This document shows positions 18,001 through 24,000 of a stretch of DNA of 45,337 bases, in pieces (positions within the stretch are counted from its first letter, which is position 1; each line of letters starts with the position of its first letter). Source of the stretch: a virus (lineage: Duplodnaviria > Heunggongvirae > Uroviricota > Caudoviricetes); the IMG/VR virus record IMGVR_UViG_2721755660_000004; one strand, 5' to 3'. A program made the position numbers.

Positions 18001-21000
18001 TCACGATGTTTGGTATTTTCAAAAAGAAAACACGCAAGGCCATTACCGAAGTGAAGAAGATGGAGAATCGCGATGCAGTGGAGGCGACCGTCTGGGGTGC
18101 GTATTCCATTGCATATGCTGACGGCACCTGTGACGCGAAAGAAATCGCGGTACTGGAGAAAACCATTGCAGCACTTCCTGCCTTTGCGCCGTTCTCGGGT
18201 GAGATTGCACAAATGAGTGCAAATATCCGCGCCCGTTATGAAGCATCGCCGCGTTCTGCCAATGCCGAAGCCCTCCGCCAGCTGGCTGATATTGCAGGTA
18301 CTGATGACGCAGTTAATGTGCTGTGCCTGTGTCTGGATATCGCTGACCAGGATGGTATTGGTCCGGATGAAGAAGCACAGCTCAAGAAAATTGCTCAGGC
18401 GCTGCAGCTACCACTGGAGCAGTACCTGTGAAAAGTGCGCGCCTTGTGCTGGCTGCCATCCTGCTGTTTCTGGTAGTGGCAGTGGATTTCACCGGACGGC
18501 TGATGTCGGTACTGGCAGATGGTGTGCTGGTGGCGGGGATGGTGATAATGGTGTTGCCTTTGCTGAAGAGTGTAAAAAATACACAGACGTGAAATGTTAA
18601 ATCCATCACAATTAAGTTGATTGGGCATTGCTGGTTGACGGAGCTTTTGTTAGAAAAAATTTGCATGGTGGATCCCCCCGGGTGGTGGGCATATGAGTGA
18701 TGTATGTTTCTGTTCTGCTCCTTTATTATGCTGATTCGGGTACTGATACTGAATTCATCGGGAGGCACCCGGCACCATGCAAGCATGCCCCTCTCCTGAG
18801 GGGCTTTTTATATAAACAGGTTCTACAGATTCTATCAGACATGCGTAAACTTATTATGGCCTGTGTCGTTTTAGTCCGTAGGGGCATATTTGCAGAATGC
18901 AACGGTTATTAAAGCATTCATTAAATACGTTATCTGAATTTGCAGGGCATTCCTGGCTGTTTTTGATTAAATCCCAGAATCTTTTATTGAATGGTACAAC
19001 GTTGTAAATGGTTACAGGTAGCACTTTGTTATTGAGTACGATACCTGTGTGAGTCAGCGTAAATATACTTTCAGGAGGTAAGAAAACATCCGATTGATAC
19101 CAGATTATTAATTTTATTTTACTCCATATGGCTGAAAAAGATATTCCACATGATGGCTGGATAACTGTATCAATCACAATCCACTTCATTTAGTTTCCTT
19201 ATTTATGCCTTGCTGGTGATGTTCTGAAAAGTATAAATGATAATTTTGAATGTAAACCATAGAGCAGAACTGTTTTTCTGATTTTGTTTATTGTTTATTT
19301 AAAATGCAGGGTGGTTTATATCTCGTCTTGTAGTTTATCCATGCATATCTGCTTTATGATGAGGTTTTATTTAAGGTATGGTTTTGTGTTTTTTTCTGTA
19401 TTGCATGTCAGGTATTTTAAAGAATTATTTTTTAGATGGTGGAAAGAACCATGGCATTTAAACACTATGATGTTGTCAGGGCGGCGTCGCCGTCAGATCT
19501 TGCGGAAAAGCTGACACACAAACTGAAAGAGGGCTGGCAGCCATACGGCGGACCGGTTGCCATTACGCCGTACACACTGATGCGGGCGGTGGCTATTGAA
19601 GGAGAGCCACAGGTCGGCCCTTCATCTGAGCCGGACTGGTTCTACGTGGTTGTGCTTACCGGACAGTCCAACAGCATGGCCTACGGTGAAGGGCTTCCGT
19701 TACCGGATTCTTACGATGCTCCGGATCCGCGCATTAAACAGCTGGCGCGCCGCAGCACGGTAACTGGCATTTTTAGCAGAGCCTGAATGCCATAATCACG
19801 GCTCCCGGAGTTGGCCGTCAGTGGGTGACACGGGCGGCTTTTTGTTTTTCTTTACTTTCATTTTCTGTCGGCGGGGACGGAGACATACATCATATGGAAA
19901 AAATTACAACAGGTGTGTCATACACCACGTCAGCGGTGGGGACGGGATACTGGTTACTGCAGCTGCTGGACAGGGTTTCCCCGTCTCAGTGGGCGGCAAT
20001 AGGCGTGCTGGGGAGTCTGCTGTTTGGTCTGCTGACGTACCTGACGAACCTGTATTTCAAAATTAAAGAAGACCGGCGTAAGGCGGCGCGGGGAGAGTAG
20101 ACGATGAACCATGAAGAAATGAATCAGCGCATAAGTTGCCTGGAAAATGAAATCACTGAACTGAATAAAAAACTGTCGGTGCTGATGGTTTCTGAAGATG
20201 AAAAAAAACGCCGCGATGAGCAGGAAGCAGCGTTTTACGATGATTGCATCAAAATTGCTCGCAGGACCTTTGCGAAGATTTTGCAGGAAAAGTTTTTACC
20301 GACCGCATTGTCAGAAAAGCACTCCATTACAGTTAAAAGTGCCGGAGAGGAAGGCAATAAACGTTATTTTATTGCGTCTGCACCGGATAAAGACCAGGAA
20401 TGGGGGGGGAATCGGCCATCTTTTATTGTGACAAGCGATGACTGGAATATCACGATCCGTGAAGATGGAAAAGTAACACCAGCATCGCACCAGCACAGTG
20501 AGGCGCTCATTGAATTTGCCATTGATTACCTGAAGAACAATAAAAAGCAGGGACTAATGAAGCGCATTGGTCGTTGCATGGGATATCTGCAGGTAGCTGC
20601 TGAGATTGAAGCGCTGGCCAGTGGTGCGGACAAGGATGCAGTTGTGCGGGAGGCTCTTCTTCGTGATTTTGATAATCCACCCTTTAAAAAAGTGCCGGCT
20701 TACTGGTTTCATCCAGGACTGACTTATCTTAAAGGACGTATATAAGCTGGCTCGTTATCTGTTGCCGGATAATCGACGGAAGATGCGTTCTTTTTGTGAT
20801 TTGGCGTAATGATGATCCCACTCACATTCAAGGTAGTTTAATTCTTCGTTTAACCAGTCATTTATATTGTCTTTCAGACGTAGAAGCATGGCTGGTGTTA
20901 ATATTCTGGACATAATGTCGAGAGTTGGTGGTGTGAGGTGTCCATACGGTTCAGCCTGAATGGATTTTACTGCTTCGTGGTTTTGCTGAATGAGTTTAAG

Positions 21001-24000
21001 GAATGCTGATTTAAATTGTTCATTCATGGCCTGCATGCAGGCGGTATATTTATGTTCATCGTTATACATTGCTAAATCCTCGACGGGAATTGTCAGATAT
21101 ATTTCAGCCATCAGGTAAAACACCAGTGCCCACCACTGGCGGGCTGAAGACTTAACATATCCAGGGATTCGGAACCGATAAATCCTGATAAATATCCATG
21201 AACACCAAAATCAAATACGGTCTGTCGGCTGCCGTTCTGGCGCTGATTGCCGCAGGTGCGCCTGCGCCTGAAATCCTCGACCAGTTTCTGGATGAAAAGG
21301 AAGGTAACCACACAACGGCATACCGCGATGGTTCCGGCATCTGGACCATCTGTCGGGGTGCCACGATGGTGGATGGAAAACCCGTTTTTCCCGGTATGAA
21401 ACTGTCGAAGGAAAAATGCGACCAGGTCAACGCCATTGAGCGTGATAAGGCGCTGGCATGGGTGGAGCGCAATATTAAAGTACCACTGACCGAACCACAA
21501 AAAGCGGGTATCGCGTCATTTTGTCCCTATAACATTGGCCCCGGTAAGTGTTTTCCATCGACGTTTTATAAGCGGCTGAATGCTGGTGATCGTAAAGGTG
21601 CATGCGAGGCGATTCGCTGGTGGATAAAAGATGGTGGGCGCGATTGCCGCATACGTTCAAATAACTGCTATGGACAGGTTATTCGTCGTGACCAGGAAAG
21701 CGCATTAGCCTGTTGGGGGATAGATCAGTGAGCAGAGTCGCCGCGATTATTTATGCTCTGGTTATCTGCATCATCGTCTGCCTGTCGTGGGCGGTCAATC
21801 ATTACCGTGATAACGCCATCGCCTACAAAGAACAGCGTGATAAAAAAGTCAGTGAGCTGAAGCAGGCGATCGCCACCATCGCTGACATGCAGCAGCGTCA
21901 GCGTGATGTTGCTGCTCTCGATGCAAAGTACTCGAGAGAATTAGCCAATGCGAAAGCTGAAAATGAAACTCTGCGCGCTGATGTTGCCGCTGGTCGTAAG
22001 CGCCTGCGGGTCAATGCCAGTTGCTCCGCAGCCGTGCGTGAAGCCACCGGACCCACCAGCGTGGATAATGCAACCAGCCCCCGACTGGCAGACACCGCTG
22101 AACGGGATTATTTCACCCTCAGAGAACGGTTGATGACGATGCAGAAGCAACTGGAAGGGGCGCAGGAATATATTCGCACCCAGTGCATTAAGTAGCCTTT
22201 TTGTTATCAGGAGAATGTATGAAGAAATTACTGGTAACCGCAAAGCTCTTTAATGGAAGAATCCCGTTCCGGATTTTACAGCGTTGTCGTGTTCTGGCTG
22301 AAGGTACATTCAGTGGTAAATGCACGGAATGTTATTCACGAATATATGAAGTGGATGCCACGGATGAAGATATAACCGTTGAGTGTAATGCCGGGATTGT
22401 ATCGGCCACATTGCTTCATGGGCGAATTGGGTTGTCGCAGGAGGATGCAAATGAATTACCAACTGGCAAAACTTTATCGTGGTAAACATTTCGCAGGGTA
22501 TGGGATTGCAGTTAATGGTGAGTTACTGGAAGGGCAGCTTTCCGCCAGGACAGAGTCACGCGGAGGCGAGCCACCAACCGTCACTGTGACTTTCAGACTG
22601 ACAGCAGAACATATCGAGAATCAGCCCGTCATTAAACTGAACAGGGTGTGAGGTATATTTATGCCATCACGAATCCCACGCGCCTGCCGTAAGCGTGGAT
22701 GTGCAGGTACAACCACAGACAGTTCTGGTTACTGCGATAAACATCGTGGCGAAGGATGGGTACAGCATCAACGCGGACTGAGCCGCCACCAGCGTGGCTA
22801 TGGCTCGAAATGGGATGCCATACGTGCGCGCATACTGAAGCGTGATAATCATCTGTGTCAGAACTGTCTGCGCAATGGACGAGCCGTTGAGGCCAGGACT
22901 GTAGACCACATTATCCCAAAAGCTCATGGTGGCACTGATGATGATTCCAATCTTGAGTCGTTATGCTGGGAATGCCACAGAGTGAAGACAGCAAGAGAAC
23001 ATATTCGATGATAATATTCACTGCTGTAATGCATAAAAATAGTTTCTACATTCATGCAGATACCCGGAAGGAATTTTGGGTTGTTTTAAGTAAAAAGCTG
23101 GGGTGGGGCAAATTTGAGTTAATTCGCCCCTCAGATGAGTTTAGCCCTACTGGAGGGTTGTTTGAATTAGTCGAAGTGCGTTCGGCAGATTCAGAGCCCC
23201 CTGAGTCAGTAACTGTAGGGTCAAATGTTTTATGGCGTCTCCCGGAAGCTCTCGGAGTTTTGAAATCAATCCCTTCTTCTGATCTTCAGGTATATTTGCA
23301 ACACGGATTATATCCTCAAGGGCAACAATCGTGTCATTGTGTAACCGAACGGTTTGAACTTTAAGGATCGCACTTAAGCCGCCATCATCAAGAAGAAAAT
23401 CAATTCCTTTCTCTGTAATGTTGCAGTACGGGGCATTGAAGATAAAATCAACGCCATCCATGGTATCGCTGCGTACGAAGGGTGTAGAAACGAGACCATG
23501 CATTTCAAGGTATAACATGCACGCCACAAAGTGATCATAGCTGTCAAATTTCTCAATAAGGTCTTGTTCCTGTGCCTTGTTTAAAGAGTTAGGAGCACAA
23601 TCTATAAGGGCGTTGAGGATTTCAAGTTGTAAGGTTCTGTCATATTTTCTGGTTTTATCCATTTCTTAGACTCCATCGTTTATTTATTGAGATTAACTGA
23701 AGACATCATGCTGAGCATCCTGATGGATGACCAGTATCTTCTTTTTGCGTGATTTCTTGCTGCCATCTTCAGGGGGGAGGGGGGGATCAAATCCCTGACG
23801 CCTTTCGCGCTTCAGGACCGCCGCCTGACCCTTCCTCATATCGCCGCAGGTTCGAAAACTTTTTTTTGGAAATGTGAACAAACGATTGATAGGTAAGACC
23901 GATTATGTCAGGACCTCCGAAAACCCCGCCACGCCTGCATTTGATTCGAGGCAACCCCTCAAAGCGCCCCGTTAAAGACCACAAAAAAACCGCTAAAAAG

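What the first reader, a model, noticed from the sequence alone, without database searches (positions are those of the whole stretch)
20104..21123. Two unrecognised genes split the lysis cassette between the pinholin and the SAR endolysin
In canonical lambdoid cassettes the endolysin follows the holin directly. Here the S21-type pinholin (19894..20100) is followed 3 nt later by a 213-aa ORF (coiled-coil N-terminus, its own Shine-Dalgarno), then by a convergent 104-aa ORF on the opposite strand (GAGGA RBS, separate promoter expected in 21070..21197, which also holds a CCAGTG-N5-CACTGG palindrome), and only then the endolysin. Both inserted genes are visibly more AT-rich than the flanking lysis genes, and I recognise neither. 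The forward gene would be made with the holin late in infection; the antisense gene would be transcribed against late read-through. This looks like an accessory two-gene module: candidate abortive-infection or superinfection-exclusion system, lysis-timing regulator, or toxin/immunity pair.
Basis: partly seen in the sequence, partly recalled or inferred. Interest (0 to 1): 0.7.

Follow-up and report, generated by a model that had tools for sequence, protein, structure and literature searches.

The report
Variable accessory genes inside prophage lysis cassette
Two real but uncharacterised accessory genes sit between the pinholin and the endolysin of an E. coli lambdoid prophage, in a slot that varies widely between related prophages; they assort independently, so they are probably two separate add-on genes and not a two-gene system.

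Summary
The window is a lambdoid prophage of E. coli GB089. An S21-type pinholin (19894-20100) is followed 3 nt later by a 213-aa ORF. A convergent 104-aa ORF on the minus strand comes next, and then the SAR endolysin. Both inserted genes are AT-richer than their neighbours, and the palindrome is present.

Neither gene is an orphan. The forward gene is a long-form YdfR-family protein (phrog_1085) that lacks the DUF1327 domain. The reverse gene belongs to phrog_1853, a very small family seen only in Escherichia and Salmonella. In every retrieved locus it lies between holin and endolysin, in reverse orientation.

The holin-endolysin (S-R) junction is hypervariable:
- empty in 933W;
- ydfR alone in the Qin prophage;
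- many other combinations elsewhere;
- at least four unrelated reverse-strand small genes fill the same place, most behind a shared leader.

The two genes assort independently. About 660 E. coli genomes carry the forward module without the reverse gene, and 626 carry a reverse allele beside a decayed forward gene. I found no hits to defence, toxin-antitoxin, antiholin or structural libraries.

Best reading: two independent accessory (moron) genes, one made late and one probably made in the lysogen. Their biochemical functions remain unknown. Interest is modest.

The parts
19894..20100 (+). S21-type class II pinholin, 68 aa. This allele lacks the upstream Met of the MYQM dual-start form.
   Evidence: PF04971 E=3.5e-33. 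The upstream sequence is ATACATCAT, not ATGTACCAG.
20092..20095 (+). GGAG Shine-Dalgarno for the forward gene, inside the last holin codons and 8 nt before the ATG.
   Evidence: Sequence. In related loci, whichever gene follows the holin also starts within a few nt of its stop.
20104..20745 (+). Forward accessory gene, 213 aa: a long-form YdfR-family protein without the DUF1327 domain. Residues 1-64 are predicted helical and coiled-coil-like, about 76-120 form four beta strands, and 129-213 form a conserved basic helical module (MKRIGRCMGYLQ...PGLTYLKGRI).
   Evidence: phrog_1085 E=1.7e-101 on profile positions 117-296 of 296. 80% identical over residues 67-213 to phage 86 gp05. The 287-333-aa homologues carry PF07041. 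dN/dS 0.24-0.30. The AlphaFold2 model is poor, pLDDT 50.
20755..21069 (-). Reverse accessory gene, 104 aa: a soluble five-helix protein of phrog_1853.
   Evidence: phrog_1853 E=1.5e-45. dN/dS 0.27-0.44. AlphaFold2 pLDDT 85.6, pTM 0.79. No fold match. It lies in the S-R slot in every retrieved IMG/VR locus whose flanks were held.
21077..21081 (-). GAGGA Shine-Dalgarno of the reverse gene, 7 nt before its ATG.
   Evidence: Sequence.
21070..21197 (.). Divergent leader between the reverse gene and the endolysin. It is better conserved than either accessory coding sequence. It is shared with loci that carry unrelated reverse genes, fully by two further families and partly by a third. It presumably holds the reverse-gene promoter and 5' UTR, and the endolysin translation-initiation region.
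   Evidence: Alignments A3, A4 and A5. The last ~75 nt match about 950 E. coli genomes. No consensus promoter was found.
21123..21139 (.). Palindrome CCAGTG-N5-CACTGG. On the minus strand it forms an 8-bp hairpin followed by UUUUA.
   Evidence: minus strand -20 kcal/mol, z=-2.3; plus strand z=-1.1. It is kept in the O178, Evi, 12E129 and phage 86 loci. It is absent from the GN04979 and 7_26_9A loci, which carry reverse genes, and from the O157 ydfR-only locus, which has none.
21198..21731 (+). SAR endolysin (R21-like lysozyme) with no canonical Shine-Dalgarno.
   Evidence: PF00959 E=1.4e-24, phrog_7. The N-terminus is MNTKIKYGLSAAVLALIAAGAP.
21728..22195 (+). Rz i-spanin. Its GTG start overlaps the R stop. 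Rz1 is embedded at 21948-22133.
   Evidence: PF03245 E=9.9e-50. Rz1 is annotated by PGAP; Rz is not.

Best explanation
The holin-endolysin (S-R) junction of S21-type lysis cassettes in Escherichia prophages is a hypervariable accessory slot. This window carries one particular filling of it: two independent accessory (moron) genes, not a coupled system.

(1) The forward gene
- It is a modular, soluble, late-expressed protein of the YdfR family in its long form. Here it lacks the DUF1327 domain, which has been reported to bind the RNase E N-terminal domain.
- It keeps the coiled-coil and the conserved C-terminal module.
- It is read from the Q-dependent late transcript. Its ribosome-binding site lies inside the last holin codons, so it is made together with the holin.
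- It is dispensable for lysis.

(2) The reverse gene
- It encodes a small soluble five-helix protein and uses its own promoter in the conserved leader next to the endolysin start.
- By analogy with other reverse-oriented genes embedded in lambdoid late operons, it is most likely made in the lysogen and switched down by late read-through.
- It probably acts by binding another protein.

Shown: anatomy, family membership, purifying selection, slot specificity, and independent assortment.
Inferred: expression timing, the promoter, and any biochemical activity.
For: Identity of the window: 100% match to the E. coli GB089 prophage.

The junction is variable:
- S and R are adjacent in 933W, VT2-Sakai and Stx2_EH0337.
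- ydfR stands alone in Qin and in O157.
- Other fillings include a 114-aa YdfR plus a reverse 90-aa gene, a 72-aa gene plus a reverse 98-aa gene, a 185-aa gene alone, a 161-aa gene alone, and a 296-aa gene alone.

The forward gene is a mosaic. The N-terminal coiled-coil is shared with the 161- and 185-aa forms, and the C-terminal module is shared with phage 86 gp05 and with the 287-333-aa DUF1327 proteins.

The genes assort independently:
- 95 genomes hold both genes.
- About 660 genomes hold the forward C-terminal module only. This is extrapolated from 23 of 60 evenly spaced rows of 1731 records.
- An intact 185-aa and an intact 296-aa forward gene occur with no reverse gene.
- 626 genomes hold a 90-aa phrog_1853 allele beside a forward gene reduced to a 10-codon stub.
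- In IMG/VR, a forward C-terminal module 94-95% identical to the window's is paired with a reverse gene only 47-50% identical. A module 80% identical is paired with a reverse gene 68% identical.

The reverse slot:
- Four mutually unrelated families occupy it: phrog_1853, phrog_2411, phrog_25324 and phrog_10490.
- Three of them share the leader including the palindrome. The fourth shares only the part nearest the endolysin.

The genes look like accessory genes:
- GC is low.
- dN/dS is about five times that of the lysis genes.
- Taxonomic range is narrow. The forward family occurs in 3 of 185,579 species genomes, all Escherichia or Shigella. The reverse family makes 19 clusters among 1.84 billion representatives.

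Precedent for lysogen expression of a reverse gene inside the Q operon: phi80 taiEcA (PMC11364771).

Background on YdfR: its DUF1327 part binds the RNase E N-terminal domain and co-purifies RNA (PMC13232886).
Against: - No expression data were available.
- No consensus promoter was found for the reverse gene.
- In the 42 IMG/VR loci found with the close-allele alignment A2, the reverse gene always had a forward C-terminal module beside it wherever that flank was held (41 loci). This may reflect more than physical linkage.
- Both genes are intact in most of those loci.
- Strict confinement of the whole reverse family to the S-R slot hints at a lysis-related role, which an arbitrary moron would not need.
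- No biochemical function could be assigned to either protein.
Confidence: 0.6

Rival explanations
1. A defence plus counter-defence 'noncontiguous operon', as in phi80 taiEcA/atiEcA. The reverse gene would be made in the lysogen and block superinfecting phages. The forward late gene would neutralise it so that the prophage can complete its own lytic cycle.
For: - The architecture is the same: a reverse gene interrupts the Q-dependent late operon next to a co-directional late gene (PMC11364771).
- The close alleles of the reverse gene always had the forward C-terminal module beside them in IMG/VR.
- Both genes evolve faster than the lysis genes.
- Non-homologous replacement in the reverse slot is typical of defence hotspots.
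Against: - There is no homology to Tai. tblastn of both proteins against 50,697 phage records hits only 4-5 Stx-phage records.
- PADLOC gave no hit.
- The reverse family persists at >=99% identity in 620 genomes beside a decayed forward gene, and sits directly after the holin in L100, L101 and L109.
- The forward gene is far more common without the reverse gene.
- Alleles reassort and do not co-diverge.
Confidence: 0.13
2. Lysis-timing regulators. The forward protein would be a cytoplasmic modulator of the pinholin or of SAR-endolysin release. Functional analogues are T4 RIII, P1 LydB and the Mu releasin gp25. The reverse gene would fine-tune or antagonise it.
For: - The forward gene starts 3 nt after the holin stop, with its Shine-Dalgarno inside the holin.
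- The whole YdfR and phrog_1853 repertoire was seen only between S21-type holins and SAR endolysins.
- This holin allele lacks the dual-start Met, so it has no built-in 71-aa form.
- The SAR endolysin has lysines in its short cytoplasmic N-terminus. In Mu, such lysines confer dependence on the releasin (PMC9239132).
Against: - There is no transmembrane segment (maximum 19-residue Kyte-Doolittle hydropathy 0.76).
- There are no Pfam, NCBIfam or PHROG lysis annotations.
- 933W-type phages lyse with S and R adjacent.
- The forward gene is decayed in 626 genomes.
- A dN/dS of 0.24-0.44 is high for a partner of the highly constrained holin and endolysin (0.04-0.08).
Confidence: 0.13
3. A toxin-antitoxin or toxin-immunity pair that stabilises the prophage or aborts infection.
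For: - The two small genes are adjacent, with stop codons 9 nt apart.
- A convergent arrangement could give antisense overlap. A weak minus-strand terminator-like site lies at 20258-20276, inside the forward gene.
Against: - Each gene is common without the other.
- The genes are convergent, not an operon.
- There are no matches to toxin-antitoxin or defence models.
- There is no nuclease, kinase or membrane toxin motif.
- The structure searches were empty.
Confidence: 0.04
4. One or both ORFs are non-functional relics of recombination at the junction.
For: - The slot is littered with relics: a 10-codon ydfR stub, frameshifted alleles, and a deletion fusion in L055.
- The leader upstream of R resembles the ydfR 3' region of other loci.
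Against: - dN/dS is below 0.45 in frame, against about 1 or more out of frame.
- The ORFs are intact in 31 of 35 IMG/VR loci.
- Both have good Shine-Dalgarno sites.
- The reverse protein gives a confident fold.
- Divergent family members (25-50% identity) keep the same length and motifs.
Confidence: 0.05

Closest known systems
YdfR family (DUF1327, PF07041): ydfR of the E. coli K-12 Qin prophage and the long 'YdfR family' proteins of Stx phages such as phage 86 gp05
   Same: - It occupies the same position, starting 3-4 nt after an S21-type holin and lying before the SAR endolysin.
- Residues 67-213 are 80% identical to the C-terminal part of phage 86 gp05.
- The whole 213 aa aligns at 58-64% identity to the C-terminal two-thirds of the 287-333-aa YdfR-family proteins.
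- It falls in the same PHROG, phrog_1085.
   Different: - It lacks the DUF1327 domain that defines the family (no Pfam hit). That domain is the part reported to bind RNase E (PMC13232886).
- K-12 YdfR (103 aa) shares no alignable segment with it.
phi80 taiEcA/atiEcA 'noncontiguous operon' (tail-assembly-inhibition defence with a late counter-defence)
   Same: A reverse-oriented gene interrupts the Q-dependent late operon, with a co-directional late gene beside it. In phi80 the reverse gene is expressed in the lysogen and is lowered when Q is overexpressed (PMC11364771).
   Different: - There is no sequence similarity.
- The location differs: inside the lysis cassette, not upstream of the packaging genes.
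- The sizes are inverted.
- The partners are not obligately linked.
- No defence phenotype has been tested.
Classical lambdoid morons in reverse orientation (lambda bor; iraM in this same window)
   Same: - They have low GC.
- They run opposite to the late operon and presumably use their own promoter.
- Their presence varies between related phages.
   Different: - Bor is a lipoprotein. The 104-aa protein is soluble, with no signal peptide.
- It has no sequence relation to IraM or Bor.
Accessory lysis regulators: S21-71 antiholin, T4 RI/RIII, P1 LydB, Mu releasin gp25 (DUF2730)
   Same: The gene is embedded in a lysis cassette with a pinholin and a SAR endolysin. The forward gene is probably co-translated with the holin.
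   Different: - There is no transmembrane domain and no DUF2730 or other lysis-family match.
- It is dispensable in many related prophages.

Membership tests
YdfR family (PF07041 / DUF1327) | Presence of the DUF1327 domain | tested here: not met
   Pfam scan of the 213-aa protein gave no PF07041 hit at E<=0.1. NCBIfam gave none. BLASTP against K-12 YdfR found no alignment.
YdfR family (PF07041 / DUF1327) | Gene lies between an S21-type holin and a SAR endolysin and starts a few nt after the holin stop | tested here: met
   start contexts.
Long-form YdfR proteins (phrog_1085) | Coiled-coil plus the conserved C-terminal module MKRIGRCMGYLQ...PGLTYLKGRI | tested here: met
   phrog_1085 E=1.7e-101 on profile positions 117-296. 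58-64% identity over 99% of the query to 287-333-aa PF07041 proteins. Alignment A1.
phrog_1853 (reverse gene) | Profile match over the full length | tested here: met
   E=1.5e-45, residues 1-103. The 90-aa O157-type allele also matches.
Tai/Ati defence with counter-defence (phi80) | Reverse-oriented gene interrupting the Q-dependent late operon next to a co-directional late gene | tested here: met
   Sequence anatomy. Description of the family in PMC11364771.
Tai/Ati defence with counter-defence (phi80) | Sequence homology to Tai or Ati proteins | tested here: not met
   tblastn of both proteins against 50,697 phage records hit only Stx phage 86, Stx2_12E129 and Stx2_95. I infer that phi80 is in that collection; I did not check.
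Tai/Ati defence with counter-defence (phi80) | Lysogen expression of the reverse gene, anti-phage activity, and neutralisation by the late gene | not testable with these tools
   Needs RNA or protein measurements and phage challenge.
Known anti-phage defence systems (PADLOC-DB 2.0) | Match to any defence-protein model | tested here: not met
   No family at E<=1 for either protein. The library dates from 2023.
Antiholins and lysis regulators (S21-71, T4 RI/RIII, P1 LydB, Mu gp25 / DUF2730) | Membrane tether or holin-derived sequence, or a match to the family model | tested here: not met
   Maximum 19-residue hydropathy is 0.76 and 0.94, so no transmembrane segment. No lysis-family Pfam or PHROG hit.
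Type II toxin-antitoxin pair | Obligate co-occurrence of both genes in a co-directional operon | tested here: not met
   The genes are convergent. Each is common without the other.

The most novel reading that the evidence does not exclude
The position immediately upstream of the SAR-endolysin gene is a dedicated hotspot. There, enterobacterial lambdoid prophages exchange small lysogen-expressed effector genes behind a largely shared leader. At least four unrelated families were found, with the leader shared fully by three and partly by the fourth. These effectors would interfere with competing phages or with lysis, for example by blocking the pinholin/SAR-endolysin pathway of superinfecting relatives. 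The modular YdfR-family late proteins next door would be their late-phase counterparts or RNase E-directed host-takeover factors.
Probability: 0.12. Interest if true: 0.7.

Novelty: new member of a known kind. Interest (0 to 1): 0.33.

Why it matters
The S-R junction is carried by thousands of E. coli genomes, including O157:H7 and other Shiga-toxin strains. It sits in the transcript that also drives Shiga-toxin release. None of its genes, ydfR included, has an established function. Showing that the slot has a forward late sub-slot and a reverse sub-slot filled by unrelated genes, mostly behind a shared leader, gives a concrete and cheap set of candidates to test. The tests are prophage-encoded defence, lysis timing, and RNase E modulation. 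If the genes prove to be neutral cargo, the result still improves annotation of these prophages.

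Tried and rejected
Searches that returned nothing useful:
- Pfam, NCBIfam and PADLOC for both proteins.
- PDB sequence searches, single-sequence and profile: nothing below E=0.02.
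- Foldseek against BFVD: no hit with E<1.
- The afdb50 library was not available.
- Rfam at gathering and at E<=1 over 19300-22400.
- The sigma-70 scan found no promoter for the reverse gene.
- Literature: 'DUF1327' gave one irrelevant paper. The Stx-phage lysis-cassette survey PMC8136144 does not, in the passages retrieved, discuss genes between S and R.

Hypotheses considered and rejected:
- A conserved metal site in the 104-aa protein (C11, H31, H44, C82). These residues are not kept in the 90-aa or more distant alleles.
- The hairpin at 21121-21141 as a conserved minus-strand terminator. The U-run is present only in the phrog_1853 loci. Substitutions give mixed strand support: three in Evi favour the minus strand and one in phage 86 favours the plus strand.
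- The longer 118-122-aa start for the reverse gene. Homology and the Shine-Dalgarno site support the ATG at 21069.

Full report
**What is there**

The window is 100% identical to a lambdoid prophage of E. coli GB089, a ground-beef isolate (NZ_CP013663.1). The late region has the following order:
- an STnc100-type sRNA (18634-18809);
- a reverse iraM;
- a truncated DUF1737/esterase gene;
- an S21-type pinholin (19894-20100; PF04971 E=3.5e-33);
- a 213-aa ORF (20104-20745, + strand);
- a 104-aa ORF (20755-21069, - strand);
- a 128-nt leader;
- a SAR endolysin (21198-21731; PF00959);
- Rz/Rz1.

- The gap after the holin stop is 3 nt.
- GGAG lies 8 nt before the forward ATG.
- GAGGA lies 7 nt before the reverse ATG.
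- CCAGTG-N5-CACTGG is at 21123-21139.
- GC is 44.5% and 39.7% for the two genes, against 52-55% for the lysis genes.

**Are the ORFs genes?**

Yes.
- Against the homologous loci of Stx2 phage 86 and Stx2_12E129, dN/dS is 0.24-0.30 for the forward gene and 0.27-0.44 for the reverse gene.
- Other frames of the reverse region give 0.8-2.7. The exception is the antisense frame that shares third codon positions, which gives 0.36-0.53, as expected.
- The holin and endolysin give 0.04-0.08.
- Both proteins match PHROG families of unknown function: phrog_1085 at E=1.7e-101 and phrog_1853 at E=1.5e-45.
- AlphaFold2 gives a confident five-helix model for the 104-aa protein (pLDDT 85.6, pTM 0.79). The model for the 213-aa protein is poor (pLDDT 50).
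- Both proteins are soluble, near-neutral, and lack a transmembrane segment.

**What the forward gene is**

It is a mosaic.
- Residues 1-60 are coiled-coil-like and recur at the start of 161- and 185-aa proteins in other junctions.
- Residues 67-213 are 80% identical to the C-terminal part of phage 86 gp05. That 268-aa protein is annotated 'YdfR family', and its N-terminus is a DUF1327 domain.
- Proteins of 287-333 aa with PF07041 align to 99% of the 213-aa query at 58-64% identity (alignment A1).

The window's gene is therefore a long-form YdfR-family protein without the domain that names the family. All 189 homologues are from E. coli. A scan of one genome from each of 185,579 species found three loci, all in Escherichia or Shigella.

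The only functional data concern K-12 YdfR. Its first 72 residues, the DUF1327 part, bind the RNase E catalytic half, and the protein co-purifies RNA (PMC13232886). That part is absent here.

**What the reverse gene is**

It belongs to a very small family.
- There were 12 hits in the 5.8-billion-protein collection.
- There were 19 clusters among 1.84 billion representatives.
- All named members come from Escherichia or Salmonella and are annotated 'hypothetical'.
- PDB profile searches were empty.

**The junction across relatives**

The S-R junction is hypervariable.
- S and R are adjacent in 933W, VT2-Sakai and Stx2_EH0337.
- K-12 Qin and O157 have ydfR alone.
- Other loci carry a 114-aa YdfR plus a reverse 90-aa gene, a 72-aa gene plus a reverse 98-aa gene, a 185-aa gene alone, a 185-aa gene plus a 75-aa DUF1327 gene plus a reverse 95-aa gene, a 161-aa gene alone, or an intact 296-aa gene alone that PGAP miscalls as a pseudogene.
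- The reverse-strand genes fall into four families with no detectable similarity to one another: phrog_1853, phrog_2411, phrog_25324 and phrog_10490.
- All four sit in the same place, diverging from the endolysin start.
- Three of them share about 110 nt of upstream leader, including the palindrome and a GATGGCTGA motif. The fourth shares the 45 nt nearest the endolysin.
- That 128-nt leader is better conserved than either accessory coding sequence.

**Is it a two-gene module?**

The evidence says no.
- In E. coli complete genomes, 95 of 5426 hold both genes.
- Roughly 660 hold the forward C-terminal module without this reverse gene. This figure is extrapolated from 23 of 60 evenly spaced rows of 1731 records.
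- 626 genomes, mostly O157:H7, O55:H7, O103 and O111, hold a 90-aa phrog_1853 allele next to a forward gene reduced to a 10-codon ydfR stub and a faint relic.
- In every IMG/VR locus retrieved with the reverse family whose flanks were held, the gene lies between holin and endolysin in reverse orientation.
- About 50 of those loci have a forward gene with the C-terminal module and about 30 have none. In three, the reverse gene comes directly after the holin.
- Alleles reassort. A forward C-terminal module 94-95% identical to the window's is paired with a reverse gene only 47-50% identical. A module 80% identical is paired with a reverse gene 68% identical.
- One pattern favours linkage. In the 42 loci found with the close-allele alignment A2, the reverse gene always had the C-terminal module beside it wherever that flank was held. 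With stop codons 9 nt apart, that can be explained by descent.

**How it most likely works**

Shown:
- The forward gene is placed to be translated from the late transcript right behind the holin.
- The reverse gene is antisense to that transcript, has a good ribosome-binding site, and lies behind a conserved leader.

Inferred:
- The reverse gene has its own promoter in 21070-21197. The consensus scan found none there. The best candidate by eye, on the minus strand, is TTTATC-17 nt-TATGTT (7 of 12). Both hexamers are invariant across the seven loci with reverse genes.
- A transcript from that promoter would begin just before the 8-bp hairpin (minus strand -20 kcal/mol, z=-2.3).
- By analogy with phi80 taiEcA, the reverse gene is most likely made in the lysogen and damped by late read-through. 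taiEcA is a reverse gene inside the Q operon that is expressed in the lysogen and lowered when Q is overexpressed (PMC11364771).
- What either protein binds is unknown.

**Rivals**

- A Tai/Ati-like defence plus counter-defence pair fits the architecture. It does not fit the independent assortment, and there is no homology.
- A lysis-timing role fits the strict confinement to pinholin/SAR-endolysin cassettes, the coupling to the holin, and the loss of the dual-start Met in this holin allele. Against it, the proteins have no membrane tether, match no lysis family, are absent from 933W-type phages, and are often decayed.
- A toxin-antitoxin pair is unlikely, and so is a pair of dead relics.

**Verdict**

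The genes are not unrecognisable, and they are not a coupled module. They are one filling of a known but unstudied variable slot. Novelty is modest: new members of the moron kind. The most interesting by-product is the reverse sub-slot, where four unrelated genes sit mostly behind a shared leader.

Noticed in passing
window 21070-21197; L004 1522-1794 (-), L006 1455-1751 (-), L011 2109-2396 (-): The place just upstream of the endolysin start is occupied, in reverse orientation, by at least four mutually unrelated small genes in different E. coli prophages: phrog_1853, phrog_2411, phrog_25324 and phrog_10490. Three of them share a ~110-nt leader with the palindrome and a GATGGCTGA motif. The fourth shares only the part nearest the endolysin.
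   Followed up: partly
window 23147-23662 (-): A 171-aa reverse-oriented ORF lies just upstream of the terminase small subunit. This is the position where phi80 carries its Tai defence gene. It has no hit to phi80, but it has 34-49% identical homologues in Edwardsiella, Pseudomonas, Acinetobacter, Klebsiella and Halomonas phages, annotated hypothetical or as a putative regulator.
   Followed up: partly
window 19882-19896: This holin allele reads ATACATCAT-ATG where most relatives read ATGTACCAG-ATG (MYQM). It therefore lacks the upstream start of the 71-aa form and can make only the 68-aa protein. 3 of 15 window-type IMG/VR loci share this.
   Followed up: partly
window 18634-18809 (+) and 18854-19189 (-): An STnc100 sRNA match (93.7 bits) lies at the start of the late region. 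It is followed by a reverse-oriented, very AT-rich iraM anti-adaptor gene (GC 36%), another reverse moron in the same late operon.
   Followed up: no
window 8672-8860 (+): isrK and C4 antisense RNA matches lie side by side next to Rha and ProQ/FinO-like genes. I recall this arrangement from P1/P7-type antirepressor control regions; I did not check it.
   Followed up: no
window about 15281-17870: An IS66-family element (tnpA, tnpB, tnpC) is inserted between the replication/DUF1133 region and the late region. This may affect late-gene expression of this prophage.
   Followed up: no
window 21728-22195 (+): The Rz i-spanin (GTG start overlapping the endolysin stop; PF03245 E=9.9e-50) is not annotated in the RefSeq record. 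Only the embedded Rz1 is.
   Followed up: yes
L009 1961-2854 (+): In E. coli FAH, and by inference in the many genomes with the same unannotated match, an intact 296-aa long-form YdfR ORF is annotated by PGAP as a truncated pseudogene. The family is therefore under-annotated.
   Followed up: yes
window 21150-21200 compared with L013 900-1005: The endolysin has no canonical Shine-Dalgarno. Its upstream ~50 nt is homologous to the short spacer that follows the 114-aa ydfR gene in O157. Further upstream, the homology runs into the 3' end of that gene. The leader may therefore descend partly from a ydfR 3' region.
   Followed up: partly
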